A stretch of DNA of 57,135 nucleotides, filler included, from Sluysia triapertura (Eukaryota), in NCBI GenBank assembly GCA_046118255.1. It is 4 parts of 4 records of this genome, joined end to end, with 100 filler letters (N's around TTAATTAATTAA, not from the genome) between each part and the next. Parts side by side here need not be neighbours in the genome. Positions count along the whole stretch, not along the records: positions 1 to 12,989 come from JBJNIA010066624.1; positions 13,090 to 31,337 come from JBJNIA010163037.1; positions 31,438 to 45,341 come from JBJNIA010014977.1; positions 45,442 to 57,135 come from JBJNIA010178918.1. One strand, 5' to 3'. This document shows positions 1,990 through 55,710 of the stretch, in pieces. Positions within the stretch are counted from its first letter, which is position 1, and each line of letters begins with the position of its first letter. The notes under the pieces are model-generated. The model saw nothing but the letters and a program-made list of their open reading frames with translations, did not search any database and was not told the DNA's origin. Both the position numbers and the translations under genes were made by a program.

Positions 1990-2785
1990 TATTGTAACTG
2001 TACATTATGTTGAATAATTAGCAACGATTGGGCATCCAATCAGAATAACAAATGTATATAACAAAATTAGAGTGATTGGATGTCCACTCAACTGGCACAT
2101 ATACATATGAAACCTGTGCCTAGTAACCACCACTAAAATATGTCATTTAATGACAGATAGATAATTAAAACTTTTGTATAAAATATTAATGATGATAATA
2201 AATTAATTACAATAATAATAATTATTATAATAAAATAAATAAATAAAATAATAATAACAAATAATAATGCCAATAATATAGTTATATAAAAATACATAAA
2301 CCTTATATTCTTTACACGATCTTTTCTTTTCTTTCATTATTAAAATTCATAACATTTATTTTCTTCTTTCTTAACATAAAAATCTTTATTAAACCACATA
2401 AATAAAATTTTCTTTTAATTACAGAGCTTGAAATGAATTTACAGTATAATTTTAATGTTTTACGAATGTGTTAAAGAATAAGTGTTGAAGAATTGTGAAC
2501 TTGAAATGTTTTGGATTAATTTTAACATGTGTATTTGATAATTTGATATGCACATTGTGATTCTAATGTTGTAAAATTGTGAATTAAGAATGTTTTAAAT
2601 GAAATTTAAAATGTACATTAATGGTTTGAATGTAAGTATAATTTTGATGTTATGATATTGTGAATTTAAAATGTTTTGAAATGTAAAAAGGTTTTAATGG
2701 ATCTGAAAAAAATAAAATGTAAGAATATATGATATTTCATGTGAAGTGGTAATTTGAGTTTTAAATGAAAAGGTTGGCCACCACA
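1990..2785 (-). mobile_element. TGTGG-terminated module M1 (subfamily A)
   Basis: Terminus ggttggccaccaca at 2772-2785. The reverse complement of 2290-2720 aligns with 8310-8830. Palindromes tgtcatttaatgaca (2141-2155) and gattgggcatccaatc (about 2027-2042). Confidence 0.8.
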
Positions 2786-3096
2786 TCAGGAAAGCAAAGT
2801 ATCATTCAAGTCCACATTCCATTTATAAGTAAAATTTTCATTATTCCATTTTATTTAAGTTTAATAATATTAATTTTATTAATATTAACATTTTGTGTTT
2901 TTCGGATTTGTAAATTTTATGTTTATTACATTTGAATTATATTTTTGTATGCTTAATTTTGCATTTTTGACAGGATTTTCAACTTTTATTAGTGTTAACT
3001 GATATTTATTTGATAAAGGATAAATTATATTAATTTCTGTTACATATTAATTTGATTTTACGAGTTCAGAATTTAAATTATTCGATTTATTTTAAA

Positions 3097-3412
3097 TTAT
3101 TTCAATGATAATGCACCACAATGACTCGTATAAATCCACAAAAATATGTCAGGGAAATTTTATTCTCTTCCAGTTCTATATTATTTAATACGAAAAAAGT
3201 ATTTAAACCATAAAGTCAAATCAGAAACGATATGAGTTTTTGTAAGCTTCACAAACTATGTGCGAATTCTTTTATCTTCCTGAAATTAGACACTACGTAA
3301 ACATTTTTACTGAAAAACCTTTAATGAAGTACCTAAACTACTTCAATCTAGAGAAAGAGATAGTTAAAATGTAATGTTGGGTTTGTTAAAGGATGAGGTT
3401 TACGCACGGATG
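3097..3412 (+). mobile_element. Possible decayed Tc1/mariner transposase fragment
   Basis: Frameshifted FQ.DNAP-like motif near 3100 and GLLKDEVYAR near 3380, resembling FQQDNAPxH and WGxLKxxVY. Confidence 0.35.
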
Positions 3413-4085
3413 TCGCATATAGTAAAGTAAATGAATCAACATTTTCTAATTATTAAATTTTTACAACCAAAAATATATTTTTTTAAAATCTTGTAAAACG
3501 GTCAACCGAGTTTGAACTCGCTAACTAACTTATTATTTATATTATAATTTTTATAAGAATTTCTGTAAAGATTAGTTTTTCTTTGTGTTGATAATATACG
3601 TTAAGGATATTACATTGTTTTTAATCAAGAGTCTAATAAATTCATAAAATTTATTTTTGAAAAGCAACATCTTAGTAAGGGTTGCGTAATTATAATGTAT
3701 ATAATTTTAATTAAACAACACCTCGCAAAGGGTTGTATTATAAATTAATTAAAGAGTTACAAAGAGTTTACTCATACAAGTAAAGAAGTTTTTCTAAAGT
3801 TAATTAAGTTTTAAAAATTCCTAATAGTACGTCTCTAGTAATGGTTTAAATCGCATATATTAGGTGAACCGACTCCTTAGATATTTTGTAAGATTAGGTT
3901 TTTAATAGAAACACTTGCATAATTCAGTTGCATTTTTAATTTTCATTTTTGTTAAGGGATTCATTTAACGAATCGCAGTAACTTATAAAATTTCACAATA
4001 ATAAATTAGAGCATATAATAGCTTTCTCCGAATTTCATTCGGCACGTAAAATCTACATTTGTCAGAAAGATGAAAGTAAAACTTA

Positions 4086-4202
4086 TAGAATAAAGTAGAT
4101 TTTTAACGTGAGTCCACCAACATACTAGGCTTACCAGTCACGGCTAGCTGTTGGATTTTTTCTATAATTGAAAGGATTTTCACTAAGGGAAAATATCTTA
4201 AT
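4086..4202 (+). repeat. Dispersed repeat family E (GTGAGTYCACCAA core), copy 1
   Basis: tagaataaagta...gtgagtccaccaacatactaggcttaccagt matches 25752-25860(+) and 27180-27304(-). Confidence 0.8.
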
Positions 4203-6337: not shown

Positions 6338-6500
6338 ACTATTATTATTACTATTAATGATACTATTGGTATTACTGTAATTAATATTACTATTATTATT
6401 GCTATTATTATTACTAGTATTACTATTATTATTACTATTATTATTATTACTATTGTTATTATTACTACTACTATTACTATTATGACTATTATTATTATTC
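6338..6500. repeat. Degenerate (TAT/TAC)n microsatellite; source of the spurious poly-Asn ORF
   Basis: Read directly from the sequence. Confidence 0.85.
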
Positions 6501-8066: not shown

Positions 8067-9390
8067 TGTGATGGTCAACCGATATTTTAAAATTTTATTT
8101 TAACAATTTACAACACAATCACTCTTCAGAACATATCATAATTCTTTATACTTTCAAACACTTTAGACATAAAATTCCGTAGCTTCAAAATCATACTGAA
8201 CATCGGAAATAATCAAAGATTACTTTAAAAAATTAATCGAAACATTTTAAATTAATTTAACATATCGCACATTTTATAACAATTTATCTTTTCTATTATC
8301 AAAACCTTTTTCATATTTTATTTCTTGCAGATCCACTAAAACTAGTCTAATTTCAAAACCCTTATTAATACACATTAAATCTTATTCAAAACATTTTAAA
8401 TTAACAAGTTTTCAACATCAAAACTATATCTTCAGTTAAAACCATCAATCTACATTTAAAAATTCATCTAAAACCTTTTATTCATTATCTTATAACATTA
8501 GAATCACAATTACATCTCATTATCAAATTTACGTCTTAAAAATTAATCCCAAATTTTTCAAGTTTACAATCCTTAACACTCAATATCTAATACCACTGAA
8601 AACATTAAATTAATACTTTGAAATCATTTTAGACATTGAAATCAAATTATTACTTCTTTAACATCTTTAGTTACGTATTATTTTCTTCAATCATTCTTCC
8701 ATCAATTCACTTTACGTTACATATCTCAGTGACTAAATAAATAAAGTTTATTTTAAAAATTTTAGTATGTCTAGAAAAAAGATAAAATAAAAGAAGCTCG
8801 TGTTCAATACATCAAGAGGGATTTATGTATTTAAATTTCGTAATTTTGCGTTTTCTATAATTTTGTTATTATTATTATTTATTATCATTATTAGTTCTTA
8901 TTGTGATTATCATTTTATTTCATTTCGTATTTTGCATAATCATGATTGTTAAATTTTATCATTGTTAATTGTTGTGACTATTTACTGTAACGTCATCAAT
9001 TGACAGTTTTTGGTTTAGTTTAATACAAAAAATTGATTAAACGTTAATTTATGACAGTTTCTATGTACAGTAGCGAATATTACATACACTCGCATGTTCA
9101 TGCTTTAATTCTGACCTGATTTGACGTCCAATCAGTCTCATTTTTATTATTATCATCATCATTCAAATGTGGACGTCCAATCGTATTCAATAGTCACCAA
9201 TCAATGTTATTAGACTTCCAATCAAAACACTACATGGACAGTGGATATTTTTATACACTTATTACAATATGTTCATAGTAAAAAATATTAATTAAAACAT
9301 TTTAGAATTACAAAAAAGACGATTTGATTAAAAAGAATAATAATTATAGTAAAATAGGCATTATCATAATTTTACTAAATTTAATTGACA
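8067..9390 (+). mobile_element. TGTGG-terminated module M2 (subfamily A)
   Basis: tgtgatggtcaacc at 8067, a C/A-rich tract homologous to M1, atgtctagaaa at 8768, (tta)n near 8866, cgtcatcaattgaca at 8991-9005, and gacgtccaatc twice plus further CCAAT boxes in 9120-9225. Confidence 0.8.
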
Positions 9391-10159
9391 ACGATATTTT
9401 ATGTTTATATTGTTTCTTACTTTATAATGTCTATGTATAATATTATAATTATTAGTGAAACGGTTGGTTTAAGATTTTATCATAATTATGGTATTCCAAT
9501 AATGTATTTCAATAAATCATTTAGTTATCCATTGCATATGCTATTCGAATATTTTCATAGAAATATAGTACTCCACTGTCAATTAAATGACGATTTAAAA
9601 TTTAGTTTTGTTAACGACAAGAACTTATAAAGATGTATGTGATGTATATCCATATCTTAAAGAACAATATAGTCATTCAATAAATGATTTTGCCAACCAT
9701 TCTATGTCTCATGAAATAAACGTATTATTGTTGAATATTATAAATCCTTTTAATAATGAAATCTATTGTAGACTGATGCAAGTACAAAATATTAGTACAA
9801 AATGCTTAACTTCTTCATTCTATCAATTTCAATTAAAAGAACTCAGTACAATTAGTACAAACGATAAAAGTTCATAAATTTAGATTTTAATCACAGTAGT
9901 TATGTATCAATTAATGAAACAAAATGAAAGTATCGAATCATTAATAACAACAATTAATGATCAAGTTATATTAATATATGTTAATGTATTTATAACGCCC
10001 CGTAGATTGATAGATGTCGATTCAATTGTCATGACAAATAGAACATTATCACCAAGGACAAACATGTCGAATATCAAATCAAAGTTTAGTCGTTTAAAGT
10101 TCTTCTATGGTACTAGCAAACCTTTCAACATGAATATATCAAGTTATGCTGATGAAATC

Positions 10160-10350
10160 AAACACTACAAGATGTCTCTCCTTCCATTCGAAACTACATC
10201 ATCTGGCGAGTGTTCAAAATACGGCAAAATTTGTCAATATTCACACGGTTTCAATGAACTTCAAGACATTTTTGGCATTCCGACATATCACAATAAATAT
10301 TATGATCGAGTAAATGCTCTTTTAGCAGACGTGACAGCAATATTATTTGA
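10160..10350 (+). pseudogene. ZFP36/Tis11-type tandem CCCH zinc-finger fragment, degenerate
   Basis: HYKMSLLPFETTSSGECSKYGKICQYSHGFNELQ resembles RYKTELCRPFEESGxCKYGEKCQFAHGFHELR. The first Cys is lost and the second finger is frameshifted (KCSFSRR). Confidence 0.65.
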
Positions 10351-12462
10351 TCCAGTTATTCGAAAACTATAATTGAAAATATCTCATGGCATATTCGAGA
10401 AGAATACAATCTATGTTTAAATTCATGTTGCTTTATATTCAAAGATAATAAAAATAAATAATTGTACCTTTTATTTCTACGTTTTATTTAAATTCAGAAA
10501 AATTAAGATTAATTTTGTATTAGAGTTTCTCATTAAAGATAATTATAAGATAAATTTTCAGTTTTATATAATAATAATAATCAAATTATTATAAATAAAA
10601 CTAATCTATTTAACCAAACACCACAAAGTATTAGATAGATCAGCTGAGCTTTGAACATGTTATTGAATATAGACGACTTAAAATTCGTAAATAAAATTAA
10701 AATATAACCTTTCTTGTAATCATTGTAACACACAACAATCATAAGCAAAAACCAAAACTTATTAACAATCAAACTCACTTAACAATAACACTCACACGTA
10801 CTTATCCATTTTTCCATACACACATACAGAATTTAAAATACTACTATTGTTTTCATTTGTACAATGTTATTATTATCACTGTCACCTTATTTTCGCTTGT
10901 TATCATCATTATGTCAATGTTATTCTTTGTAATTGTCATTTTTATCGCTTTGTCATCACTATTGTTCGCACTAAAGAAATTTCTTAACGTAACCTTACCT
11001 TGAATAAATATCTTAACAAAGTCAATTATTTTAACAAAAGATTTAGTCTAGATATATGCATCATAGTAAGTAATTGTTTTAATAATATTATGTCAGCATT
11101 AGACAAACCTGGGTTGTATAATTTAACTGAGCTTACTTTCGTAAATGATATAATACGAAAGGCTCAAATTTAAACTACGAGTTAAACGTCAAATCTAACA
11201 AGCTTTTTGTCTTTATCGATCTCATTGTAACATAAAAATGTGCACGATAAATTAATTCCCTTAAACTCGAATGCTTATTTAATCAACAACTATCAATTAT
11301 CAAAATTCCCAATTTCACCTTAAGGAATTAGTATTTTTCAATATTTGAAATCGATTTTTTCCGTCTGAAATACATAAATATAATTAATTAATATTCTGAT
11401 TATAATATAATGTCAACATATCACATTCGAGATACACAATTTATTTACTAATTTTCATGAATAAGAGTTAGGAATTGTTAAATTGTTATATTTATCCCAT
11501 AATTAAACTGGTAAAAGGACATATGTGTCCCAAAGCATTTTTTCAAAAACCATACATTCTAAAAGTCTAAAATTATGCAAACAAATTCCTTTACATATTA
11601 CAGCACATATCTTAACTGGCCAAAAGTCATATTGAAAGGGTTGAAACCATTACCAAAAAGAGTTTAGCTGAAATTTTAAATTACAAACTTAAAATAAATA
11701 AAATAAATTCAAAATCAATAAATTAAAATGATTGGTGAGTAGGTTTACAAGTACTATTTCTATTTCTCCTTGTTTTGATTCTGTTTGGTTAGATCTTCCC
11801 AATGGAAATTTGAGCAGTGGCGTGTCTGTAATCATCCAGATATTTATGCCAAACGTTCCAGGTTTTGTAGAATTATAACTCTTAAAACTACACAGCCATT
11901 TGTAGTACAGAGTTACTATTCAAAAATCAATATACTTTTTCTTGCAATTGTTATAAATTTTTTATTAATAATTATAATTTTTATTATTTTTTGTTTTATT
12001 TTTAATTATTTTTCAGGAAATTATTGGATAACAAAGAGAGTAGACAAAGTACTGATATAATAGTTTGCATATACTTGATTTGTAGTAAATTGTGTTATGA
12101 CATTCTACATGAATAAAATTTCTGTATGCTTTTTTAACTATTATTTTACTTTCAGAAGTTATTTCCATGACAACAGTCAGTAAATTGCATATATTTATAC
12201 ACTTTTGATTAATAGTTTTTAGTATCATTGAAAAATGCAGAATTTTATCACAAAAATAGCTGTCTTTAGTCTAATAATTGTTAAATTGTAATCACAATGA
12301 ACGCTGGTCTACTTAAAAGCAAGTATGCAAATATGTGGTCATTTAAATTTAGCTAAGAAGAGTAGAGAAGTATGCAAAATAAGTTATAAGATGATCACAA
12401 ATAATTAATTAGTGATATAAGGAAATTTTTAAGTATTAAAATATGTTGTTATTTTTTATTAG

Positions 12463-18567: not shown

Positions 18568-19378
18568 TGTGGTGGTCAACCCGTAATATTATAAAAATTT
18601 TATAAAAATAACCCTTAACGTTCATCTTTTCCACACCTACCGAACAATTCATCTGTCAAAGTTAAATCATATTCACAACCTTATAACTTATACATCACAT
18701 TTACATCCAATACCGCCAATTTACACCAACAAATCTATCAAAAATATGTAACTCGACATCCATAACAACCAAATAATATCCACATTTGAAATTATTTACT
18801 TTACACCTTCGAATCAATTATAATACCTTAAATTCAATATTACATAATATTATTTCAAATATATCAAGAGTTCCACTATAATTTACCTTTCACATTTATT
18901 AAACCACACTCTTCCCAATAGGTCGTCTATTCACGATCTTCCAATACTCAAATGTCGTTCTCAATCAAGAACTTTAATTACCATCTAAGAACTCATTCTA
19001 ACATTCACCATTTCATTCCACGACATAAAACAACTATTATATCTTCAAACGTTAACCACACACATAATTTTTAAAGCAATCTCTACTCAGAAATTTTAGT
19101 TTTAAATACAATTTAAATTTATTGCAATATGTCCAGAAACCAAGAAGAATTAAAGAAAGATAGTGTACAGTTTTAAAGAATTCAGCAATTTATATGATTC
19201 AATAACCATAATAACTTTAATACTGTTTCTTTTGCCGTTATTATTATAGGATTAAATTCAAGCATTACTAATTTAAAATATGTTAAGAATCATGGAAAGA
19301 AAACAGAAAGTTAATGTTTGTTAAGAAACAAGAGATTCATGTGTTTTTCTTTTAGTATTGATAATAATAATGACAATA

Positions 19379-19439
<61 letters not shown>

Positions 19440-19730
19440 CAAATTATTATTATATATGTTATCATTATCATCATTATAATGCATTTTAATTTGTAATTAT
19501 TCTTTAACTAAAATTATGCATAAATCAGTTTCTACCACTATCAGCAGCTAATTTCTGTCAATACGTTTTAATTAACATCACTACTGATAGTGGTTAGTTC
19601 GTTAATGTGCACTATAAAATTGTACTCTTATTGGCCATCCAGCTAGAATTAAATTCTTTTTGTTCTGCCAAACAATTCTGGTTGGATGACCAATCAAAAT
19701 TTTATTAATATGTACAAAAAATTAAAACTC
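18568..19730 (+). mobile_element. TGTGG-terminated module M3 (subfamily B)
   Basis: tgtggtggtcaacc at 18568; 18568-19165 is colinear with 55001-55705; atgtccagaaa near 19128; (tta)n at 19382-19440; attggccatccagc near 19630 and gttggatgaccaatc at 19681. Confidence 0.85.
19382..19440. repeat. Perfect (TTA)n microsatellite inside M3
   Basis: Read directly from the sequence. Confidence 0.95.
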
Positions 19731-19764
19731 ACATTTATAATATCATTATAATATCGAATTACTA

Positions 19765-21430
19765 TATGGGTTACGCCATAATGATTTATTCATCAGAAAT
19801 TCTAACAAAATGCAGAAATTTAGATTAATGCTCAATTTAGAACGAAATAAATTTATTATATTAATTGCAACAATTTCAAATGATATCCGGCGATTATATT
19901 TGTCTGAGTATATAGTTCATATCGTGAAATTAATCTCGATAAAAGAACAAATTACTAAATTAGATTTTGATCATCAGAATGAATGCGAAAACTTGGTTGA
20001 AGTAATTTTTAATACTATTAAAAGTGCGTGTTCTATCATAATGAATGATAATCTATTTTCAGTCGCTACCAATAACAAACATAAAGTATCACTCTCTATA
20101 CCTAATTATCAAGAATGTTATGAAGCTTATAAGTAGATTAATTCTAATGCAATATTTAATTCGAGTGTATAGTCGTTTACGTATTATAATAATGAATTGG
20201 TCAATTCACTTAATAAATACGAGTCTATCTTGATGATGTTTTCTGTTTTGAATCAAGATGTTATGAAGAAATTTAGAATAATTTTAGTGTAATTATTGAT
20301 AGTCAATTCCAATTTATATTGACTCAAAATCCAAAATGTCACGATTTTACAAATATAATCAAACATGTTCCTCTTTATAAATATCTCGTAAGTTATAGTG
20401 ACCGTAATCGATTTACAATTTTACTATATTAGAAAATTAATGATCAAGGATAATGAAAAAGACTTTTTTGGTTTATTTAACTTTACAAAAACAGGCTCAT
20501 ATTTTTAAACTGTCTTGTAATCATGAGTCACCTTATAATGTTGGAATTATTTCAATTCGTGCAGAAACATTTCAGACACGAAGACAAAGTTACGAACTTT
20601 TAAATTTTAATAAAGAACGTTCAAAAACATGTTATCTTGACTACGTGGAAGGAAATTCATTAACCAGAGCTTTATATGATCAATGTATAAGAAAAACATT
20701 CACGCTCAGAGTCGTATTTCGAAATTTACGGAATTATTCGCAAACTTCTGCAATATTGAACAATCAAGACTATCTTTTGAATATCCGGAAAATGGTGACA
20801 CTGAAAATCTGTCGAAATTGTATCCTTGGTATGCTCCAAATTATTGCAATAAATCAAGTAAAAGTATTTTGGTGTTCATTTTGGCAATGGTGAAGAATAA
20901 CCATAACGTAGATTTTTCTTTTACTTATTTTATATATATTTTAAATCATCATTTTTATTTAGATGTTTGTTTTGGAGCTGCGCTTACTGATGTACGTAGG
21001 AGCACAAAGAAGAAAAATTTTAATTTTATTACTCCATTAAATAAAATTGTCTGTGTTATTAAAGAGTTTTTAATTGATCTTCTAATTTTTATTGCAATTA
21101 AAGTATATAAGATTTTTGAAATTGCTCTTTATAAAGAAATTGATTTTGTGAATATAAATAACGTATATATCGAAATTGATTTTAAAATTATAAAATCGGT
21201 CTATAAATCTAGACGTACTAATTTAAATTCTGTGAATTACCTGAAAACGTTATTGAATATAATAACGAGACCTAAGGTATTGTTAGTTGAACGGAGAACA
21301 TATTTAACAAATATAATAACACATAAAGTTATAATACAAAATTGGTGTCAGCTCATTAAAATATCATTACACAAGGAAACACCTCAAACGTTTTTACACA
21401 AAAAGATTAAATTCATCCAACAAAAATGAC
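19765..21430 (+). pseudogene. Probable dynein heavy chain N-terminal tail (DHC_N1) fragment, heavily decayed
   Basis: Ordered motif echoes across frames: ERNKFIILIATISNDI (ERLxxLLxxIxNxI), ESPYNVGIISIR (PPxAGxIxW), LLNFN (VNFD), LNNQDYLL...LYPGMLQI (LxxxExxL...LxPGLxxLxW). Confidence 0.45.
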
Positions 21431-21829: not shown

Positions 21830-22335
21830 TTCAATATAGGACGAAACATAATTTTTGGTGTCGTCATTATTAAGAATGGACAACATAACTAATGAATCAA
21901 CAATAAAAGAAGTAGATAATTTTGGACACATACGCATTAAATAATAAAAATATAATATTTTTGAAATATTCATAAATAAATTACCAATTATTTTTATTTT
22001 ACAAGATAATACTGATATGATACTGCTTTACATAATGCTATACTTAAAAAGCATGTCGAAGCTGCTAATATAATTTGTTCGTTATAGAAATCATTTTTAT
22101 AGTCAATAAATTTAAAGACTTCTGCCAATAAACCACCCCTAATATTAATTATAGCATTCAACAAGCCAGATTTCTTTATTGTTCGTTTGTTAAATTTTGG
22201 TGCTCAATTAGATATATGGGATAATTTAGATAATAATCCTCTTAATTATGCGATGAAGTACAACAAATTCAATATTTTAAAATTATTGTGTGAAAATTAT
22301 CGTGTTTCATCATCGAAGCGATATGAATTATAATA
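21830..22335 (+). pseudogene. Ankyrin-repeat gene fragment, decayed
   Basis: VDNFGH, DTALHNAILKKHVEAANII and RLLNFGAQLDIWDNLDNNPLNYAMKYNKFNILKLL, with stops and frameshifts between them. Confidence 0.8.
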
Positions 22336-24496: not shown

Positions 24497-25327
24497 TTAT
24501 TTACATCTACATAAAAATTTTTGGAATTTTCTAAATAAAATCAAATAAACAACTGGATTAACAACAGTTAATAAAATAACTAAGTAATCAACAAAAAATA
24601 CATCAAGATCTAAAAGTAATTCTGGTTTAACCACAAAATGAAAAATAAAAACTATTATAAGACCTAGAATTAAATAAATCGATGATGATACTAAATTTGT
24701 TACAGTAAATCGAATAAATAAACGCTTACGATTGTTTATTTCAGTTTCAGATAATAATGATTTATTGATTGTTGTTTTCAATACAAAGCATGTGAATATA
24801 TTAATTGGAAATAATAAAACAAATGGTGTTAATATTAACATATAAAAAAGAATATATCCATACTTTGCATTCCCATCAAAATTATGCTTATATATCATCA
24901 TAATTACATCGGACATGTAAACGCATAAACCTAATAAAATACCAATTATTATTCCGATTATATAATGACGAATTTTAATTCGTTGATATAACAAACAAAA
25001 TTTAATACAAATTAGTCGATCAATACTCAATAATACCACCATGTATGAACTGCAACTCGATAACATCCAAAATATGTCAAGCTTCAAAGTTAGTACATAT
25101 GTATTTAAATCATCCAAGTCCCAATAATACAATAAGGCACATAAAATTGTCAATATATCCAAAATAACTTGAACTTTCATAATCAAAATGGATTTTTTCG
25201 GTGCCACTTGAATACGATGAATGAAAATAAAAAATATAATATTTATTACGATAAAAATAATCATAAAGAATATTTTGATAACAAAAAGTGTCCATGTTTC
25301 TCTTTTATAGTAAAACTTAAATTTCAT
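24497..25327 (-). CDS. Intronless class A (rhodopsin-like) GPCR, about 276 aa from the ATG of MKFKF
   Basis: Seven hydrophobic segments, TM1 N, TM2 D, SIDRL (DRY-like), TM5 P and NPVVY (NPxxY) in an uninterrupted frame. The track ORF's GTG start at 25453 is probably not the real start. Confidence 0.85.
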   Translation of the reverse strand: MKFKFYYKRETWTLFVIKIFFMIIFIVINIIFFIFIHRIQVAPKKSILIMKVQVILDILTILCALLYYWDLDDLNTYVLTLKLDIFWMLSSCSSYMVVLLSIDRLICIKFCLLYQRIKIRHYIIGIIIGILLGLCVYMSDVIMMIYKHNFDGNAKYGYILFYMLILTPFVLLFPINIFTCFVLKTTINKSLLSETEINNRKRLFIRFTVTNLVSSSIYLILGLIIVFIFHFVVKPELLLDLDVFFVDYLVILLTVVNPVVYLILFRKFQKFLCRCK

Positions 25328-27429: not shown

Positions 27430-28374
27430 TTGTCAATAAGAACTGAGACCATTTAATTGTGCTAAAATAATGATTAAAATGATTGTTTGTAAATAAGACC
27501 AGTAATGTCTGGCGAATATGCATCACGATGATGGTGTTGAATCAAATTATTAAGATCCTATGAGTTGGTCAACTGAAAATGGTCCAAGCAAATTACAATC
27601 ACTGTTGCTATCGTAAATTATAAATTTGTGTACCAACCAACACTGTCATTAGTTGACAGTTGATAAGATGGATTATAGTTTATTTAATTAAAACTGCCAA
27701 CTAATGATAGATCTGAAATTGAAATTTTTTACAATTAATAGTATTGATGATAATAATGCTGATAATAATAATAATTATTATTATTATAAAAATAAATTAA
27801 TAATAACATAAATAGAATAAATTAAAATTAATAATAATAAAATAAATTAAAATTCTTAGCATAAATTTCTTTATGTTTTTTCTTTTAAAATTTTCTTTTT
27901 TATCTAAAATTACATATTTTTTGTATCTATTTTTTATGTGCTATGTACTTTAACGTATAAGAATAAAATAAATAATACATTTATTTTCTTCATTTTCCTT
28001 TCTTTGTGTAAGTTCTATTGTCGTTTCGTGTGATTCCTAGTTCTTTTAATATTTCTATTACTTAGCACATTTTTAGATAAGGATAATGTAAAAATAGATC
28101 AGTTTGACATGGTTCTATTTGATATACGTGTTGCGAAATTGATTGTTGAAGGAAGAATATGTGACATCACAAAAATATAAAGAATAAAAATTATAAAAGA
28201 GGTTAGTAAAATTGGACATGTTCCATTTAGATTATTATTATTATGTTTTGAAATAAATTTAAAATGTAAATTTATTGATTTTCGATGTTATGAATGGTTT
28301 TAATGTTATCAAATTGTGAACTTAAAAGTATTTCAATATATTTATAATTTTGAGTAATAAGGTTGGCGACCACA
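27430..28374 (-). mobile_element. TGTGG-terminated module M4
   Basis: Terminus ggttggcgaccaca at 28361-28374, a G/T-rich tract similar to M1, a (taa)n tract at 27745-27840, and tgtcattagttgaca at 27644-27658. Confidence 0.75.
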
Positions 28375-35494: not shown

Positions 35495-35820
35495 TGTGGT
35501 GGCCAACATCACAACACATTAAAGGTTGTACTTCTACATTACCTAAAACACTCATTAGATCAAAAAGTATTAAATTTGCATTTTAAAATATTAGTAATTT
35601 AAATGGAATTTCTTTTGACACCTTTAACTTTGTTATTACACTCTTTTGATACTCCTTCATAATTCTTCATTTCGTTTTCACTCTACCTTTATCTCACCTC
35701 GCTGAACTAGAAGAATAAAAAAGAAATATTTAAAGAAAAGGAAAAGAAGAATTAAAAGAAATTTATGCATTTTTGTTTTTATATTTATTTCTTATTTATT
35801 ATTATTATCATTATTATTAC

Positions 35821-35862
<42 letters not shown>

Positions 35863-36230
35863 CATTGATTATTATTATTATCACACTAAATTTTTAAAAA
35901 ATCTTTATTTGTGCCCCATATCTTATCGTGACAGAACTTGTCACAATTTGATTTATCTATTTTAAATAAAATGAAACATTTACAGCTACTAATTATTGGT
36001 TCCATTCAAAAATGACAATTATTGAATGGCCAATAAAATTATGATGTAGTTTGGCACAAATCAACTAGCTGGCAGATAATTAGTAGTCTCAACACATTAA
36101 TTTGCCTGATCACAAGATTAACCACAATTTATTCAGCCACAGTGTTAACTCAATAACTCTCATCGCAATATAATATATTCAGATACAATAAAGATTCATA
36201 AAAATTTTTAAGCTTTCGCCATTGGAGTTA
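35495..36230 (+). mobile_element. TGTGG-terminated module M5
   Basis: tgtggtggccaac at 35495, a G-poor tract, atttatgcatttt at 35761, (att)n at 35797-35880, and attgaatggccaat at 36021. Confidence 0.75.
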
Positions 36231-36499
36231 ATTATATCAAAATCTAAAGTTTAGATTCTAAACAATACTAATAAATGAAAATTAAATTGAGAGATAGAAC
36301 TGCTAAATGTAATGCCATCTCAACAACAAAATCATTCTGCCAAAATAAGAATACAAGAAATTCAACAAACAAAACCACTTTTAAAGATGAGTGTATTGAA
36401 AATTATAAGTCATTAAATCAAAATCATTTAAAATCACGGCTACAACTTCGTCTTCTAATAGTGTTATGAACTCGAATAATTCAAATTTCAAAATGATGT

Positions 36500-36955
36500 A
36501 CTTTTATTTTATTATTAAGATAGATGAAAATTCTATTATTCCCACAGAATGTTTAAAAATCGTATAAAAAAGGTAATCAAGCTGAAAATATAAATTCTAC
36601 TCCAGAACTAAGTGATACTAAGATTATCATTTTCTCTCATTCATTTAATATAAAATCTATCGAAGATTTAGAGACAGAAGAATTTCCAAGTAATATTAAA
36701 GTTCGAGATCTAGATCAAGAAAGTCAAGAAAGTTTAATAATGAATTTTATATCTCGTCCTTTTTCTACAAAATTAACTAGACACTATGAATATGAATTGT
36801 GCAAGCGCTCTCTGGATCATATTCCTTACTTCATTAACATAACATTCGGTATAACATTCGATGTTATAGACATTAATCGCAATTTTGTTAATATTAATAT
36901 TAATTCCTATTTAACTATTGTTATTAATTGTTTTCATTTCTTTAGATACATTTAG
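36500..36955 (+). pseudogene. Decayed ORF of unknown family, paralogous to 6850-7440(-)
   Basis: Shared NxKSI, MNFIS and GITxD motifs in the same order. Confidence 0.45.
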
Positions 36956-38539
36956 ACATATTAAACATCATAATCGATTAATCATATGTTATTTGATCAT
37001 TAAAGTTATCATTATTTATAATAAAAAACATAAATACTTTACTAATAACTAAGATTCATTTACTGATGTCATCAATTATTGTAATAATGATAATCAAATG
37101 CAAGATTTAAAATTGTAATTTAAATATCAATTCATTAATAGTTGGAATTATAGTCACCTTAATATGTCTTACCTTATAACCGAAGATCGATTTGTCGAGA
37201 TAGTAACAATCTTGATGATAAATTTCTCTTAAATATATCATCTCATAGTTAAATTATCAACAAGTGAAAGTTCATAATGTTGTTTCAACGACAATTATAA
37301 GGATAAACTACAAATATCGAAGTATTAAAATGTACTTAACATTTCAGTCCGACTCAATACTATGATTCATACCTCTACGATCCACGTACTATTCTATTAT
37401 TCAACAGACATAAAGGTAGTCTATTTATTTTATGGAGTATTACATTTTAGTCTTTATTATTATCTTTTTTATATGATTTTTACCTTGATTTAGATTTAAT
37501 TAGTGACTTACTCTCAACACGTTCAATGATATTTCAACATTCGTCATTTGATAACTTATGTTTAATAAAATATTTTGTTGTAAATCAGTTAATTTCTGTA
37601 TCTAATAAATGTCTTAAAGATTATTTCATTTCTTTAATTTTTTTAATTACCAAAAAAGATTTTAATAAGTATGTTTTAATAACGTCTGTTAATGAATATT
37701 CGTTACATAAATTAAACAAGATAAATTCTAAAGAATATTTAATATATGAATTCAAATTTTATTTTGATAATTATTTATTTAATAAACATAAAATTAATTT
37801 CAATTACACAACACTAAAGTATAATCTAACTTACATAGTTTTAATTCATTGTAAAATCCACTACATGTTCAGAATAAAAACTTAATTTTCATTTCTTTTA
37901 GATCCCTGTTAATTCGGGATCCTACATAAAATCAAAATTTTTAACTCGCTAGAATTAAAGCGAAAAATAAATCTTAGTTTTCATAATCCTATTCAGCAAA
38001 TTCCATTGACAGCCATTATAATCCACTTTACTTATTTCTTACGTGTATAAGACTAATATCGTAAGGGACTCACATATAATTCAAATCAATTTAATCATTA
38101 AAATTGGTAAAATCATATATAATTTTATTAGGTTTAAAGTAACGGATGATTTGAAGTGACAGACGACCGTACTGCATTATATATATTCGAAATTTTAGCC
38201 GGAATGAAGGTACATTTCGCTCAGTCATTTTCAATTATAAGATTAATATGGGCACGTAAAAATCTATTAACATTTAAATTTTATATGCTTAAACTTGGGC
38301 GGTTCTTCGATAATTATATTGATATGTGATATTAAAGTTGAACTAGAGCTTGCCTTTTAATACAATAAAATATCCAGTAACTAGTTAACAATTATAAATA
38401 TTGAATTACTATTAATTTTAAACAAAAGAAAATCAATTATTATAAATGTACATTTAATTTTTGTTAGAGTATTACTATTACATTCAAATAGAAATTCATA
38501 TATTTTTTAATAATTTCTTTTTGCAAAGTCGTCATCTAA

Positions 38540-39530: not shown

Positions 39531-40494
39531 AGATTTATAACTTTGAAGTAATAATAAAATTATATATTGAAGACGTGTTAAAAAAATAATTAGTTTTATT
39601 TATATAATGGGAGTGTATTGTTATAAAAGAATTTTCATTGTATAACTATGATATTTTAAAGAACATATTGAGGTTCTGGATTTGTTTAGTTATTGGGTTG
39701 TAATTTGATAATTGAAAATAAAAGTATAAAAGACATAACAATTTACTGAAACATAACAACTCGATAGGGATAATCTGGCCATTATTAGCTTTTATTTGGT
39801 ATTTTGACACAAACTTTTCATCAATAAATATTCACATAATTCAAACTATGGCAAATAAAACTTTCAAATATTTCTATGAGTTTTACCAAACTTATTGAAG
39901 ATAGTTCCACATTACTTCGAAGTGCTTTACAAAGTTCATTTGATCAATTAAAGTCGAACTACATTCATTTCGATGAAATATTGGTTGTTTAAACTAATTC
40001 TTTAATTGAAATGGATAAAAAAGATGAACTGTACGACCTTCATACTGATAATTTTAAGTGATCGAAATTAGATTATCTGAAAAACTAGTAAGTTATCATT
40101 TTTTTGTTTGATTGAAGCACTGAAACAAATACTGAACAGAATTCCGATATAACAGACAAAAGAACTTAAATTAAAGTAATTATGTAATTTTCTCAATACA
40201 AGATTGTGAAAGATCTCCACATTTGTAATGTTGTTTAGAACAAGAAGATGGCAGAAACATGATAATATAGATTAAGCAAACGTAGATTAATATTTTAATC
40301 TAATAAAGAGCAGTTACGAATATTAGTTTAATTTAATATTGCCTTTAAGGTATAGAGCGAAAATGAATATTGAATAATAAAATTACTATTAGTGTTGAAG
40401 TATTAATGGCGCTTAAGGCTCTTATAAAATGGACATTCCATCTTAAGGCCTTTAACGAAAAAATAGTTGAATCGTAATTATTAAAAGCGTAATT

Positions 40495-40780
40495 TTGGGT
40501 GCCTAGAACATAAGGAAAGCGATAAAATTGTAAATCAATAAATTTAGAAAGAAGAAACAATTCATATGAAATAATTGCTATTGTGAAAACGTTGTATCGT
40601 CCCTTAGAGTTGTGAGTGATAGGAGTTGGGTAGGAATCTAGAATTTCCTAGACGTTTCAATAAATTGTTAAATATTTCAGAATCGAATTGTGTCCCTTGA
40701 TCAGTTATAATTCTTTTAGATACGTTGAACCTCGACACTCAATGAGTTATAAATATACTGGCTATGGTTTCCATTGTAAC
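40495..40780 (-). mobile_element. Ty3/gypsy-type integrase core (rve) remnant
   Basis: VTMETIASIFITH*VSRFNVSKRIITDQGTQFDSEIFNNLLKRLG...SYHSQL*GTIQRFH matches the rve consensus W+SRFG+P..I.TDQG.QF.S...YHPQ.NG.+ERFH. Two stops; catalytic E appears as Q. Confidence 0.9.
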
Positions 40781-40789
40781 AGAGTTATG

Positions 40790-41310
40790 ATATATAGAAT
40801 ATTATAAACATCGTTGGAAATGAAAATATTTATAATAATGTTAATATATGCAAGACTTTATGCAAGTTGAGATGGACTTGAAAAACCCTCCGAAGCATTG
40901 GGCTACCTTTGAACTTGTGAACTTTCGGATCCTTTGGGACCTTGTTGACCTTTAAGTATTCTTGAATCATCGATAAGCATTTGAGACTTTCGAGTAACCT
41001 TATAATTAAATTAATTAAGAAAAGTGCATAACGTTTTGAATAACGTTTAAATGCGGAATGCTACGTTAAATTTGAAACTGTGTATATATTTGTTTTAAAG
41101 GCTAATTTTGACGAGTACATGTAAATAAAACCTTATTATTGAGCATAGTCAAATGATTAAATAATGAAAATATAATGAATTGAATTTGAAATGATTGCAA
41201 TGAAATAGGAGAATCTAGAAGTATATATGAAGTGTCTGTAGAGTGGTTTGTTTGAGAATAAGAACCTTTATCAAACCAATTCGAGAAACATTTTTGGAAA
41301 ACTATCCTTG
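40790..41310 (-). repeat. Repeat family D copy with a short collagen-like Gly-X-Y stretch
   Basis: The reverse complement aligns with 18031-18175 and 29305-29400, and translates KGQQGPKGSE near 40925-40957. Confidence 0.7.
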
Positions 41311-50919: not shown

Positions 50920-52300
50920 CTATTCATCATTAAGTTTAATACATAAATTAATGTTAAATCTTCCAAAATATGCTATTTGAAATATTTGTATGTTCCTGAA
51001 TCTAAAATAAAAGACAAATAATAAAAATTTGTTATGAGATTTATAAATTTTTACTTTATTTGGATCAGAATCGTTGATTTCACATAAGAAATTTGTCTTC
51101 GGGCCAATTTCTGTATTGATTAAATTATTCGCCGCAGAGAATAATAATTGTTCCAATCTGCTTTTATGTGATGTTGGGAAGCTGCCGGGGAGTGTTGGTG
51201 CTTGAAGTTGGCTGATAGTGTGTAAATCTGCATGTAGCTCCAAATTTTAGACATTGGCCGTTCTGATTAGATATTATGGGACAAAATATCCCAAACATAT
51301 TAACAGCATGATTCGATGGCTATATTGTGCATCCTCAGGATAACTTAAAACATTATTTTGATGGTAAGTGTTTGACTCGTGCATCGAATCCAGCACCATT
51401 CTGTCTTTATTTGATTGTTTTATCTTTTCAGCTATGGTTTCTTTTGTAACTTTAACATATAGACTATGATCAGAGACGTGCGAATAAATATTATAATTGA
51501 TTAATACTACATCAATTCTTTTCGACTTAATTGCTTCATAAATTAATTCTTTCACATCTTTGTGATCCGTTTTATGAACTTCTTTTACAATTACATTAGT
51601 CAACATACTACAAAAATCTATTATGTCTTTTAACCTATCTACACCAATATGAACTGCTTTATTTATTGAATCCAATAAAGCTTCAGCTGTTTTATCAAAT
51701 TCAGTCATTGTATCATTTTTATAGTCACGTTTATTATCATAATCTTGATTAATGCTTTCGTTTGAACTTGTATAACCGTTCTCAATTTCATTATCACGCT
51801 TACTTGACTTATCGTCGGATGATTCCGAAATTATTATATGAAATTTATCCACCAAAGATTTTCCAATACCATGATATTTATCTATATTAATTAGGTTCAT
51901 TCCTGTAAGCATAATAATCGATGAATAATGTAAATTTGTTGTGGATGTAAATATCAAATTATCTTATAAATATTGATCTTTTCGAAATATTTTGTAGCAG
52001 GTATACTGATGCAGCCAAATTTGAATTACCAAATTTATAGTATTTTCTTTTAATTGTTTAGAACGAATATTGTATTTCAATGCATATTCAACTAGATACA
52101 CTAAACATTGAATGTCACAGAAATATTCGGTTTGACGAACTATATGATCAACGAATTTTTTAAAGTTTTCTTCATCTTGTGGACAATTACTAATTTTAAT
52201 ATATGATTCGGTTTTACAATGATTTTTGAAATAATTCGAAGATATTGATAACGACAAATTGTGAAGATTAAATTTTTGATAATTCACTCTTATCACGATA
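50920..52300 (-). pseudogene. BTB/POZ-domain gene in one reading frame broken by three in-frame TAA codons
   Basis: IRVNYQKFNLHNLSLSISSNYFK...IKI...DEENFKKFVDHI...LVEYALKYNI fits the BTB consensus. Track ORFs 51964-52296, 51274-51957 and 50920-51243 share one frame. Confidence 0.7.
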
Positions 52301-52349
52301 TTTTAAAAAATTCACGTTTGAAATTACTGTTTACTAATTGTAGTCTAAT

Positions 52350-53060
52350 TATTAACAAACAAAGAGACTTATATTAATTGTCTGTAGTGAAAAAGCAGAC
52401 AGTTATCACAAAATTTTTGTTTGTCTGTACTTTTAACGATAATCTGCGTGTAGCATTATTCAATTTTTTAATGCAATATTCATGAATTGTCCTTATTGGC
52501 TGTCTAACCAGGGTGATATAAACAATGAAAAGAGTTATTCTGATTTGCCAATAATATACTGAAATTTATATCATGTTGAGAAACCGACCACTATCAATGA
52601 TGACAACACTTTATACCTAGCAACTCATAGTGTCACCATAGATATTGGCAATTAAATTAGCAAATTGATAAATGAAAATAAAAATGGTGATAATAATAAC
52701 AACAATGATGTTATTAATATTATTTAAATACATAAATCTTTTAAAATTTATCTTAATTATTACATGATATTTCTTTTGATTCCTTTAAACTTCTCAACAT
52801 ATTTTAAAGTCAAAGATGATGAAAATTAAGAATAATAACAATAATAACAAGAACAACAATGTTATCGCTATTATTATAATAAATACATAAAGTTCTTAGA
52901 TTATTTAAAACATAATCTTTCCTTATACTCTTTAATATTTCTTACACATTTAAATTGTTAAATTAGACAAGCCATAAAGGATTATAAATTTGTGATATTA
53001 CAGCTTAATGTTACGTATTTTGGATAAGGTTTTAAGGTGTAATAGTGACGCTAATGTGTT
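52350..53060 (-). mobile_element. Module M6 (internal landmarks present; TG terminus not found)
   Basis: attggctgtctaac near 52495, tatcaatgatgaca at 52592, taa-rich tracts, aaatacataaa twice (reverse complement of the shared tttatgtattt landmark), then a G/T-rich tract. Confidence 0.6.
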
Positions 53061-53515
53061 AAATGAACACCTTTTTCGTAAAATTACCTTTTTTGTCAAA
53101 AGTTGTTTCTTTTATTAAAATTAAGTTTTAACTAAAATTTACCTATTAATTAAAAGTATATATTAATTAAAAACAATAATTTAATTAAAAATTATTAATT
53201 AATTAAAATTTTGTTTTAATGCGTCATCATTTCTGCATTAATTTCTTTTATTACTTTTATTATAATTTTAATTTTAATATTAATTTTAATTTATAATTAT
53301 ATTTTTCAATTTTGATTTTTGTATTTTTATTTTTTATATTTTTATTTGATTTCAAAAAATACTATATAATGACTTTCTGCAATTTTCTAAAAAGTATATT
53401 CGTATTAGTGCTCAGATGATGTATATTCACGATAAAAGTTATTGAGATTTTTATTTCAAATATTATGGGTTTTCTTATGCAAATGTTAAACAGATTCAGA
53501 ATAGATTACAATATT

Positions 53516-53720
53516 GTTAGAGATCAAACATTTCTCAGCAATAACGTCGTTAGAGATGAAGCAATTCTCAGAATTAACGTCGATAGAGATGAGACGTTGT
53601 TAGAGATGAAGCATTTCTCAAAAATAACGTCGATATAGATGAAAAATTTCTTAGAATTAATGTTGAGAGAGATGAAATATTTCTCTGCGATTATGTTTTT
53701 ACAGACGAAACTTTTCTCAT
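53516..53720. repeat. 33-bp minisatellite, about 6 copies, one truncated
   Basis: Unit resembles gttagagatgaagcatttctcaraawtaacgtc. Confidence 0.85.
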
Positions 53721-55000
53721 AATGGAATTCGTGAAGGGTTCAAGGCTAATTCATAACATTTTTAGAGATATTAGTAATTTTGAAAATTGTTCTCAACCAG
53801 TTAGACTAATGCTTTCTAAAACTGTTCATTACATTTGTTATACATTAAATAATCAAGTTATACGTAGTAAATTGTTTAATTTGCAAGATGACTTAAGACA
53901 TTGAGTTAATTTAAAATATTATAATGAACGTTCTTAAAGTGTATTATTTACTGAATTTTCTTGTTTATTTTTTCAGATAAAGAGTTATAGAGTAAAATGT
54001 TTAAAGTCCGTTGCACATTTGACGACGATTGTGAGTCGTTCGTCACTAAGTACGTCGACTATACCGTCTTTAAACAATAAAACAAAAAGACTACTTAAAA
54101 TTTTAAATTTGAATTTACGTGAATTAAACGCTAAAAGGGTACATGCTTATGAAGTCTTGAAGGAAAAGACTTGTATATTTATGCAACAACTTTGAACGGT
54201 CAATGACGTCAGTTAGAGGATATTATATGATTGTTTTATTTAGAATTGTTTAAGTCATCAAGTTTTAGCATAGATGCTTTAGATAGTAACTATCTTATTT
54301 ATGAGACAGGTGGATTGCTCGAAGAATATATTGGAACCTTTATGTCGTGTTGCGCGAGACGTTGCCTATTTCCGAGTCATGACTTTTCAAATTGTACGTG
54401 GTCTTTTTTATTATCAAATGGACATTGTTTGTTATTTTATCTATCATTTTCGTTTTATTGCTGTTATTTTTACAATTCGCATAATATATGGAGATTTTTT
54501 ATATTTTTCATATTCAGTTTATATTATCAAAGACCTTAAGTCCACCTTTACAAAAATAAATTTTTAATAGTTTTTAAGTTTAATAATTCTTATTTTAAAT
54601 TAATGTTTCGTATCACGATTTATGAAGTACTAAACAATAAACAATTAAATAATAAAACATTAAATACAATAACATTAAATTCTTCTATCACCAAAATATT
54701 AAATTTATTTCATTTATTTAACGATAATTCTAAATGGCTGTCTTGAAAATCAGTTGTCTATACAGACTTTCACAAATATGTTATGATTATTAAAATAGAT
54801 ATTATCAAAAATGTTAGCGAACAAAAACTCAAAATTTATTTTAAAGGATAGAAAAATTTAAAATCATTTTAGTATTTTCTTTTAAATATGTTCATGAACG
54901 AATAATTTAGCAAAGGTCGTTGAAAATATTCGTTGTCAGAGCTAAACTTTTCTGAATTTAATGTCTTTCTGAATTCAAACTGTTTCATAGAAAATATTTA

Positions 55001-55710
55001 TGCAGTGGTCAACCTTCATAACCATTAAAGTTTTACTAGAAATTAATATATTTTCCTTTAACACTTTAACATCCACACATCTATTTCCTTTATACTCACA
55101 AAACAGTTTACCTACTAAAAACAATTCATACCTACAATTCCACAACATACAAATCACAATTACACCCAACATTACCAATTTACATTAACATATCCACCAA
55201 AAACATGTTACTTGAGACTCATAACAACCAAACAGCAACTACATTCGAATTTACCCACTTCATACATTCGAATCAATTACAACACCTCAAATACATCATT
55301 TCCATTACACAACCACTAAAAACACATAAGATAACAACATTCAAAAAAAACAAGAAAATAAACCACGTATAATAGTGTACAATAACCTTCAAAATATAAT
55401 AAGAGTAGTACTAGAATCTACCTTTTCACATTCATTAAATTACACTTCTCAAAACGTCTTTTAATCACGATTTTCCAATGCTCAAGTGTCCTTCTCAATC
55501 AAGAATTTAAACCATCATTTAAAATCTACTCTAACATTCTCAGTTTCACTAAACAACATAAAAACTATTAACAGAACTCCAAACGTCAATCACATATATA
55601 AATTCATGTAAACTAATCTTTGTCCAAAGACTTTAGCTTCAAATATATTTAAGCTCAATATAATATGTTTAGAATTCTAATGATTCAAAGAAAGATCGTT
55701 TTAATGAGAT
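55001..55710 (+). mobile_element. Module M7 (subfamily B), truncated before the TTA tract
   Basis: tgcagtggtcaacc at 55001; colinear with 18568-19165 (ccaatttaca, cataacaaccaaa, ttcgaatcaatta, ttctcaatcaagaa). Confidence 0.85.

What the first reader, a model, noticed from the sequence alone, without database searches (positions are those of the whole stretch)
1990..55710. Candidate gene-capturing element family: TGTGGTGGYCAACC modules, each pointing into a different gene fragment
Seen: seven clear copies (M1 ending 2785 -, M2 8067 +, M3 18568 +, M4 ending 28374 -, M5 35495 +, M6 about 52350-53060 -, M7 55001 +) share one order of parts: sharp TG terminus with unrelated outer flanks, G-poor C/A tract, AAAGATCGTGT and TTTATGTATTT landmarks, (TTA)n, then a palindrome array. 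M6 lacks a visible terminus and M7 lacks the later parts. Reading inward, each is followed by co-oriented coding-like DNA of a different kind: NK1 homeobox (M1), ZFP36 CCCH (M2), dynein and ankyrin (M3), GPCR (M4, about 2 kb away), an unknown ORF family (M5), BTB (M6) and unidentified ORFs (M7). Known: TG...CA termini mark integrase-mobilised elements (LTR retrotransposons, Ginger), and Pack-MULEs and some LTR elements carry host fragments. Inference: a non-autonomous, promoter-bearing element family that captures host sequence and may be mobilised by gypsy-type integrases like the remnants nearby.
Basis: partly seen in the sequence, partly recalled or inferred. Interest (0 to 1): 0.9.

Follow-up and report, generated by a model that had tools for sequence, protein, structure and literature searches.

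The report
Repeat heading decayed animal gene copies
In this very AT-rich animal DNA, an old repeated element of about 1 kb keeps turning up just in front of, and pointing into, mostly broken copies of unrelated genes, which suggests a jumping element that carries host genes, though it is not shown that the two move together.

Summary
The module is real. The 14-bp terminal motif occurs 6 times (0.04 expected). Outer flanks are unrelated, and the order G-poor tract, (TTA)n, palindrome array holds in M1-M4 (0 of 2717 background anchors). Only M1/M2/M4 and M3/M7 align as sequence (69-80%), so this is an old family with subfamilies. Coding-like DNA inward is strongly co-oriented (21 sense against 3 antisense ORFs; permutation p about 1e-4). 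Homeobox, TIS11-type CCCH, BTB, ankyrin and class A GPCR are supported; dynein is not. The GPCR is an uninterrupted 7TM frame 2.2 kb from its module.

No shared second end, no consistent target duplication and no link to the gypsy-type integrase remnants was found. Ginger and LTR-retrocopy membership fail on tested features. The layout is closer to Helentron-type (HINE/DINE-1) elements, but their defining paired subterminal repeat is missing.

Best reading (0.5): a non-autonomous, promoter-bearing left arm that carries downstream host DNA one-endedly. Main rival: a stand-alone repeat sitting at gene starts. The organism, genome-wide copies, parental genes and empty sites could not be checked.

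The parts
2020..2785 (-). Module M1: terminal motif, G-poor tract, purine tract, (TTA)n, TGTCA-N5-TGACA and paired TTGG-N4-CCAA palindromes
   Evidence: 78% to M2 over 252 bp
365..757 (-). Homeobox copy broken off at helix 3, 1.27 kb inward of M1 (NK1 label is from recall)
   Evidence: Pfam Homeodomain E=5e-5; best PDB hits GBX1, BarH-like, Msx1; match ends at query residue 59-60
8067..9275 (+). Module M2; CA followed by an exact copy of the 5-bp left flank at 9275 (possible TSD, weak)
   Evidence: chance about 0.1 over five modules
9599..10369 (+). Decayed TIS11/ZFP36-type CCCH gene; the aligned finger lacks its first Cys
   Evidence: PDB 1rgo E=1.3e-4; Pfam zf-CCCH_UNK E=1.2e-5
18568..19717 (+). 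Module M3
   Evidence: 73% to M7 over 594 aligned bases, colinear from the terminus
19741..21426 (+). Decayed coding region of unidentified family (frames of 131, 149 and 249 aa; one intron-like 55-nt GT-AG stretch at 20908)
   Evidence: no dynein or other convincing hit
22103..22330 (+). Ankyrin-repeat piece, 2.4 kb past M3; link to M3 not shown
   Evidence: Pfam Ank_2 E=4e-6
24500..25327 (-). Uninterrupted single-frame class A-like GPCR, 2.2 kb inward of M4
   Evidence: ESM Atlas features 0.96 to a 7tm_1 cluster, recognition 3035; no Pfam hit; no homologue
27550..28374 (-). Module M4; a partial inverted echo of the terminal motif near 27561
35495..36085 (+). Module M5 (short, weak G-poor tract)
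36275..37882 (+). Decayed coding-like region, unidentified
   Evidence: frames of 64, 132 and 144 aa; no Pfam hit on read-through
52480..53060 (-). Partial module M6: no terminal motif, no G-poor tract, landmark/(TTA)n block present twice, palindrome array
   Evidence: array matches M3's at E=0.01
51167..52330 (-). Decayed BTB ... CCCH gene whose BTB domain starts about 190 bp after the M6 array; in-frame stops and a frameshift
   Evidence: Pfam BTB E=5e-4, CCCH E=0.0017; middle 229 aa has no homologue
55001..55703 (+). Module M7: homology to M3 ends at the purine landmark; no (TTA)n or array
55704..56744 (+). Decayed coding-like region joined directly to truncated M7, unidentified; intron-like 55-nt stretch at 56595
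40348..41060 (-). Decayed retroelement integrase remnant (related pieces at 18031-18175+ and 29344-29579+); no sequence link to the modules
   Evidence: Pfam rve E=0.024; weak PDB integrase hits E=0.26-0.57; self-match; gypsy label from recall

Best explanation
The module is the conserved left arm of an old non-autonomous mobile element family. It has a fixed TG end with a 12-bp subterminal motif, a degenerate G-poor repeat tract, a microsatellite, and an inner array of palindromes and CCAAT boxes that probably acts as a promoter. The element picked up host DNA lying downstream of this arm. The pick-up was at the DNA level and one-ended, most simply by running past its weak inner hairpins as rolling-circle (Helitron/Helentron-type) elements do, or by gap repair. 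It then deposited module-plus-gene units that have since decayed. Shown: the family, the boundary, the order of parts, the co-orientation and the decay. Inferred: promoter activity, DNA-level capture, joint movement and the enzyme. Within this reading I put a rolling-circle enzyme slightly ahead of an integrase or DDE enzyme (about 0.28 against 0.22 of the total).
For: Sharp shared end with unrelated flanks; M3 and M7 are colinear from the first base. Homologous modules precede unrelated sequences: M1 homeobox against M2 CCCH, and no shared cargo protein match between M3 and M7. Orientation bias, p=8e-5. The best stop-free path beats antisense and shuffles in 6 of 6 regions yet spans only 131-263 codons, so the frames are coding-derived but broken. 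M7 passes from module sequence straight into coding-like DNA without the array. No second end or TSD, as expected for rolling-circle elements (PMC4224331, PMC4067079). The order subterminal motif, central repeats, microsatellite, palindrome matches the HINE/DINE-1 description, and DINE-1 is linked to gene duplications (PMC4067079, passages). Hairpin bypass is the prevailing model for Helitron capture (PMC6431247). Inner arrays fold better than shuffles in 4 of 6 modules (z -2.1 to -3.6).
Against: No cargo occurs twice, and no parental gene or empty site was available. The 5' end is TG, not TC, and only 2 of 6 copies have a TT context. No paired 3' subterminal repeat: best 3-4 mismatches in 12, common in background. 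Only 1 hairpin-plus-CTRR end was found, in M1. No transposase or RepHel was found in the window. Intron retention is not significant (3 vs 1.2 expected, P=0.12). M4's neighbour is intact and distant, and M1's homeobox is 1.27 kb away. Three decayed coding-like regions have no visible module (31440-34240, 43400-45160, 53400-54560). Capture of full-length genes by Helitrons is called exceptionally rare (PMC6431247). M2 has a possible 5-bp TSD right after its array.
Confidence: 0.5

Rival explanations
1. The module is a complete stand-alone element of about 0.6-1.2 kb (solo-LTR-, MITE- or HINE-like). It inserts, or is retained, just upstream of genes and gene duplicates in one orientation. The genes were duplicated by other means and decayed in place.
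For: M2 reads TG...CA with an exact 5-bp flank copy about 50 bp after its array. M1, M2 and M3 have a similar ATGT(A/T)CA word 20-55 bp after the last CCAAT. Decayed coding regions without a module exist. The GPCR is intact and 2.2 kb away. TGTNR is met in 5 of 6 copies.
Against: The TSD holds in only 1 of 5 modules with an array and a terminus, and chance gives about 0.1. It needs both a promoter-proximal target preference and an orientation bias. M7's truncation leads directly into coding-like DNA.
Confidence: 0.27
2. One reading: an integrase-mobilised element (Ginger-type TIR transposon or LTR retroelement) with cargo between two ends. This reading is counted inside the 0.5 of the best explanation.
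For: 6 of 6 termini start TG and 5 of 6 fit TGTNR, the Ginger/Gypsy pattern (PMC2836005). Integrase remnants occur in the window. Convergent pairs M3/M4 and M5/M6 exist. One inverted 7-of-8 end with a 4-of-5 flank match lies at 10625 for M2.
Against: No 40-270-bp TIR pair: M3 and M4 do not align beyond motif and microsatellite. No second LTR or shared right end. No PBS or PPT is visible at module ends. No CCGG-type flank. Intron-like stretches argue weakly against an mRNA route. The 10625 word sits in a C/A-rich tract where such words are common.
Confidence: 0.22
3. The inner array is the host's ordinary promoter architecture (CCAAT boxes with TALE-type TGACAG sites; assignment recalled). The genes are leftovers of segmental or whole-genome duplication, and the terminal motif with its tract is an exapted or co-duplicated upstream repeat.
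For: Motifs are conserved while spacers are not. The BTB gene starts right after the array. Motif-less (TTA)n-plus-palindrome stretches occur at 6340-6780 and 10610-11105.
Against: 73-80% identity over 250-600 bp between modules in front of unrelated genes. A sharp common end with unrelated flanks. M3 and M6 arrays match by sequence (E=0.01).
Confidence: 0.15
4. The coupling between repeat and coding-like DNA is chance in a window crowded with decayed genes.
For: Only seven modules, chosen after seeing the sequence; 17% of random 2-kb windows hold 300 aa or more of sense ORF.
Against: 21 against 3 ORFs inward, no bias outward; permutation p=8e-5.
Confidence: 0.06

Closest known systems
HINE / DINE-1 (non-autonomous Helentrons; PMC4067079)
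   Same: Non-coding; a 12-bp motif 2 nt from the 5' end; central repeats; microsatellite; palindromes at the other end; no TSD; reported association with gene duplications.
   Different: No matching 3' subterminal inverted repeat; TT context in only 2 of 6; here 6 of 7 copies lead into a different co-oriented gene within about 1.3 kb.
Gene-capturing Helitrons of maize and bats (PMC4224331, PMC6431247)
   Same: Heterogeneous host cargo behind a conserved 5' end, no TSD, promoters carried with cargo.
   Different: 5' end is TG, not TC; no shared hairpin-CTRR end; no RepHel seen; the BTB cargo starts at its N-terminal domain.
Pack-MULEs / animal Pack-TIRs (PMC8277862)
   Same: Non-autonomous elements holding DNA-level host sequence.
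   Different: No TIR pair or TSD. That survey found 370 cases in 100 animal genomes, against 7 modules in 57 kb here.
Ginger1/Ginger2 transposons (PMC2836005)
   Same: TGTNR 5' end in 5 of 6 copies.
   Different: No 40-270-bp TIRs, no 4-bp TSD, no linked integrase gene.
LTR-mediated retrocopies (PMC5131818)
   Same: Element sequence fused to a co-oriented gene copy.
   Different: No flanking LTR-element sequence on the far side, no PBS or PPT, intron-like stretches remain in some cargo.

Membership tests
Ginger | 5' end TGTNR | tested here: met
   5 of 6 termini (M7 is TGCAG); pattern from PMC2836005
Ginger | TIRs of 40-270 bp | tested here: not met
   No inverted partner beyond 8-14 bp
Ginger | 4-bp TSD (CCGG/CCGT, or within RTATAY) | tested here: not met
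   Flanks and TSD scan; copies are old, so decay could hide some
Ginger | Integrase-type transposase between the same ends | tested here: not met
   Integrase remnants share no sequence with the modules; other genomic copies not testable
LTR retroelement / LTR-mediated retrocopy | Two direct LTRs around the cargo | tested here: not met
   No second copy or shared right end behind any cargo
LTR retroelement / LTR-mediated retrocopy | PBS after 5' LTR, PPT before 3' LTR | tested here: not met
   Read from module ends; host tRNA set unavailable, no tRNA in window
LTR retroelement / LTR-mediated retrocopy | Cargo lacks introns | tested here: inconclusive
   Intron-like stretches in M3, M6, M7 cargo, but 3 vs 1.2 expected, P=0.12; parental genes unknown
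Solo LTR | TG...CA with 4-6-bp TSD | tested here: inconclusive
   Met in M2 only; chance about 0.1
Helitron (canonical) | 5' TC | tested here: not met
   6 of 6 start TG
Helitron (canonical) | 3' hairpin plus CTRR | tested here: not met
   One site in the window, at M1's inner end; none for the other modules
HINE / Helentron | 12-15-bp subterminal motif 2-4 nt from the 5' end | tested here: met
   12-bp motif after TG in 6 copies; criteria from PMC4067079
HINE / Helentron | Matching inverted subTIR near the 3' end | tested here: not met
   Best 3 mismatches of 12 (M4, M5), otherwise 4; background windows reach 3-4 routinely
HINE / Helentron | Central repeats, microsatellite, 3' palindrome | tested here: met
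   degenerate sub-repeats in the M1 tract
HINE / Helentron | At least two T on each end, no TSD | tested here: inconclusive
   TT context in 2 of 6 left ends; right ends undefined; criterion
HINE / Helentron | Autonomous RepHel partner with the same ends | not testable with these tools
   Genome not available
Pack-TIR / Pack-MULE | Host sequence between TIRs with an intact parental copy elsewhere | not testable with these tools
   No TIRs found in the window; parental genes not searchable (searches found no homologues)

The most novel reading that the evidence does not exclude
A one-ended, promoter-bearing gene carrier in an animal. Diverged lineages keep only short cis-signals (terminal motif and paired palindromes). 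Each lineage carries a different, often near-complete host gene placed right behind the element's promoter. At about one unit per 8 kb it would have copied a large share of the host's gene set, and it fits neither Helitron, Helentron, Pack-TIR, Ginger nor LTR definitions.
Probability: 0.25. Interest if true: 0.85.

Novelty: new variant of a known kind. Interest (0 to 1): 0.58.

Why it matters
Gene capture by mobile elements at the scale seen in plants is thought to be rare in animals: one survey found 370 Pack-TIRs in 100 genomes (PMC8277862), and capture of whole genes by Helitrons is called exceptionally rare (PMC6431247). Seven modules in 57 kb, six leading into different co-oriented genes, would point to a high-volume route for gene duplication that supplies its own promoter. 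It would also mean that gene counts and gene-family expansions in this genome are inflated by element-borne copies. A fixed end that is easy to search makes the capture models (end bypass, gap repair, template switch) directly testable once the genome is in hand. If the rival holds, it is an ordinary repeat with a bias towards gene starts.

Tried and rejected
Organism and parental genes: protein searches with the GPCR, the RasGAP-like exon, the ankyrin exon and the M6 middle frame returned no homologue. The organism stays unknown; animal status rests on gene content. Dynein: nothing in Pfam read-throughs, PDB sequence searches or the Atlas; a remote resemblance cannot be excluded. Structured RNA or SINE head: 0 Rfam hits at E up to 0.5, no tRNA. 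G-poor tract as coding remnant: no codon-position bias between M3 and M7 or M1 and M2. Terminal motif as a PBS behind an LTR: rejected because outer flanks are unrelated. The repeat at 18457-18564 / 38568-38692 as a family right end or an empty site: only those two copies exist and no continuation was found. Cargo as intact spliced genes: no stop-free path beyond 263 codons. An altered genetic code: rejected by eye, since the stops before the BTB domain fall at positions expecting different residues (recalled) and host exons read normally. Consensus RNA fold of the arrays: 7 pairs, 1 with a two-sided change, uninformative. TTCACAA-N4-ATAAC sub-motif: not above chance (24 vs 22.6). One search used the wrong frame and is disregarded. 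Exact-motif literature search found one unrelated mouse paper, listing only. Not run: structure prediction, prokaryotic contig scan, phage and plasmid searches (not relevant to an animal repeat). Dfam, Repbase and the source genome were not available, and viral and metagenome contigs stayed unchecked.


Full report
Setting. The window is about 25% GC and falls into five blocks separated by N gaps. Three gaps hold a spacer with stops in all six frames, so the blocks may be unlinked contigs; this is inference. The gene content is animal. There is a SynGAP-like RasGAP exon at 12461-12939 (PDB 3bxj, E=0.017). There are two ankyrin exons at about 45590-45790 and 49934-50134; the first matches ANKEF1 (PDB 9fqr, one stretch over residues 2-62), and a decayed DDE transposase lies between them (Pfam DDE_1). 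Four homologue searches returned nothing, so the organism was not identified.

The module. The motif TGTGGTGGYCAACC matches 6 times at up to 2 mismatches against 0.04 expected, at the stated coordinates. The six outer flanks are unrelated (0 of 15 pairs above the shuffle maximum). A G-poor tract begins at the motif in M1-M4 and M7, weakly in M5, and is absent from M6. (TTA)n followed by a palindrome landmark is present in 6 of 7 modules. All three parts in order occur in M1-M4 and in 0 of 2717 overlapping background anchors. I found two better ones in the inner array, both defined after seeing the modules. TTGGNYRTCCAAYCA has 15 hits against 1.66 expected, 13 of them in M1, M2, M3, M5 and M6. 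TGTCA-N5-TGACA has 7 hits against 1.73, 3 of them in modules. The last CCAAT is invariant in the 5 arrays aligned.

Relationships among copies. Only 2 of 21 pairs align strongly: M1-M2 (78% over 252 bp) and M3-M7 (73% over 594 aligned bases, colinear from the terminus). M1-M4 share 85-111 bp, and the M3 and M6 arrays match weakly (E=0.01). There is no codon-position bias in the tracts and no Rfam or tRNA match. This is an old non-coding family with at least two subfamilies in which short motifs outlast the spacers.

What lies inward. Within up to 2 kb inward there are 21 sense and 3 antisense ORFs of 60 aa or more. The outer flanks of M1-M5 give 6 and 8, and M6 and M7 share one outer region. 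A permutation with seven random anchors gives p=8e-5. M2's count includes low-complexity frames. The best stop-free spliced path exceeds antisense and shuffles in 6 of 6 regions tested (M4's was not included) but reaches only 131-263 codons. Identities are as follows. M1: a homeodomain broken off at helix 3, 1.27 kb away (NK1 is a recalled label). M2: a TIS11-type finger lacking its first Cys. M6: BTB and CCCH. M4: a class A-like GPCR, uninterrupted and 2.2 kb away. An ankyrin piece lies 2.4 kb past M3. The M3, M5 and M7 neighbours are unidentified, and dynein found no support. Coding-like frames start 44-241 bp after the array in M2, M3, M5 and M6. M7 loses homology to M3 at the purine landmark and runs directly into coding-like DNA. 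Intron-like 51-57-nt stretches occur in several cargos, but a stricter count is not significant (3 against 1.2, P=0.12).

Against coupling. Three decayed coding-like regions show no module (31440-34240+, 43400-45160-, 53400-54560+); the first two start within about 200 bp of a gap, the third does not. A motif-less (TTA)n-plus-palindrome stretch at 6340-6780 is followed by nothing above shuffle level. No cargo occurs twice; the only cargo-to-cargo protein match is between the two CCCH fingers.

Ends and enzyme. A scan up to 12 kb inward found no shared second end. M2 alone has CA plus an exact 5-bp flank copy just after its array, with a chance expectation near 0.1 over five modules. The termini fit the Ginger/Gypsy TGTNR pattern in 5 of 6 copies, but Ginger needs 40-270-bp TIRs and 4-bp TSDs (PMC2836005, passages), which are absent. 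LTR-mediated retrocopies are flanked by LTR-element sequence on both sides (PMC5131818, passages), also absent. The integrase remnant at 40348-41060 is weakly supported and shares no sequence with the modules. Canonical Helitrons start TC and end hairpin-CTRR (PMC4224331, passages); here the start is TG and one such end exists, in M1. HINE/DINE-1 elements have a subterminal motif near the 5' end, central repeats, a microsatellite, a 3' palindrome, no target modification and a link to gene duplications (PMC4067079, passages and section 6). That layout fits best, but the paired 3' subTIR is not found and the TT context holds in 2 of 6. So the element works most like a Helentron-type carrier without passing any family's membership test.

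Most likely working. Shown: family, boundary, order, co-orientation, decay. Inferred: the array is a promoter (CCAAT and TGACAG as NF-Y and TALE sites is recalled knowledge); host DNA was taken up downstream of the arm by bypass of the inner hairpins or by gap repair; units moved and decayed. I give this 0.5 in total, of which about 0.22 is the integrase or DDE form. A stand-alone repeat at gene starts gets 0.27, a host promoter on decayed duplicates 0.15, and chance about 0.06.

Novelty. Nine literature searches (result listings, with six papers opened) showed no description of this motif or arrangement. The library omits most subscription papers, no supplements were read, and Dfam and Repbase were unavailable. 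Gene-carrying elements are a known kind. What would be new is the density (7 in 57 kb, against 370 Pack-TIRs in 100 animal genomes; PMC8277862, abstract and section 8) and a cargo that can begin at the gene's start (whole-gene capture is called exceptionally rare; PMC6431247, passages).

Noticed in passing
window 12990-13089, 31338-31437, 45342-45441: 100-nt gaps with a central six-frame-stop spacer; the blocks may be unlinked contigs.
   Followed up: partly
window 8051-8064 and 8335-8348: A 14-bp word just outside M2's terminus is repeated exactly about 270 bp inside M2; possibly a templated insertion or the remnant of a tandem copy.
   Followed up: no
window 18457-18567 and 38568-38692: A purine-rich repeat ends exactly at M3's terminus, giving a CA|TG junction; the second copy follows M5's cargo and has no module.
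   Followed up: yes
window 32440-33400 +: Frameshifted coding remnant that resembles the TPR region of Clueless/CLUH (recalled; no Pfam support). It has no module, but the block starts 1 kb upstream at a gap.
   Followed up: partly
window 10610-11105 + and 6340-6780 +: Module-like stretches without the terminal motif (G-poor tract and/or (TTA)n plus TGTCA/TGACA palindrome).
   Followed up: partly
window 4059-4147 +, 25747-25819 +, 27241-27330 -: A separate short repeat of 60-90 bp in three copies, two of them between M4 and the GPCR.
   Followed up: partly
window 13146-13213: 68-bp GC-rich element with perfect terminal inverted repeats; looks like an hAT-type MITE (recalled).
   Followed up: no
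window 48130-49344 +: Decayed DDE_1 (pogo-type) transposase inside the 4-kb interval between two ANKEF1-like exons.
   Followed up: partly
window 30652-31162 and 39091-39750: Another two-copy repeat, about 70% identical, unclassified.
   Followed up: no
window 53514-53901 +: 33-bp-period tandem repeat in an open frame, between the outer flanks of M6 and M7.
   Followed up: no
window 14140-14313 +: Isolated von Willebrand D domain fragment (Pfam E=1.7e-5), not near a module.
   Followed up: no
window 1297-1613 and 30361-30440: A short motif in several copies between M1 and its homeobox and, by eye, again near 30400; may be a further nested repeat.
   Followed up: no
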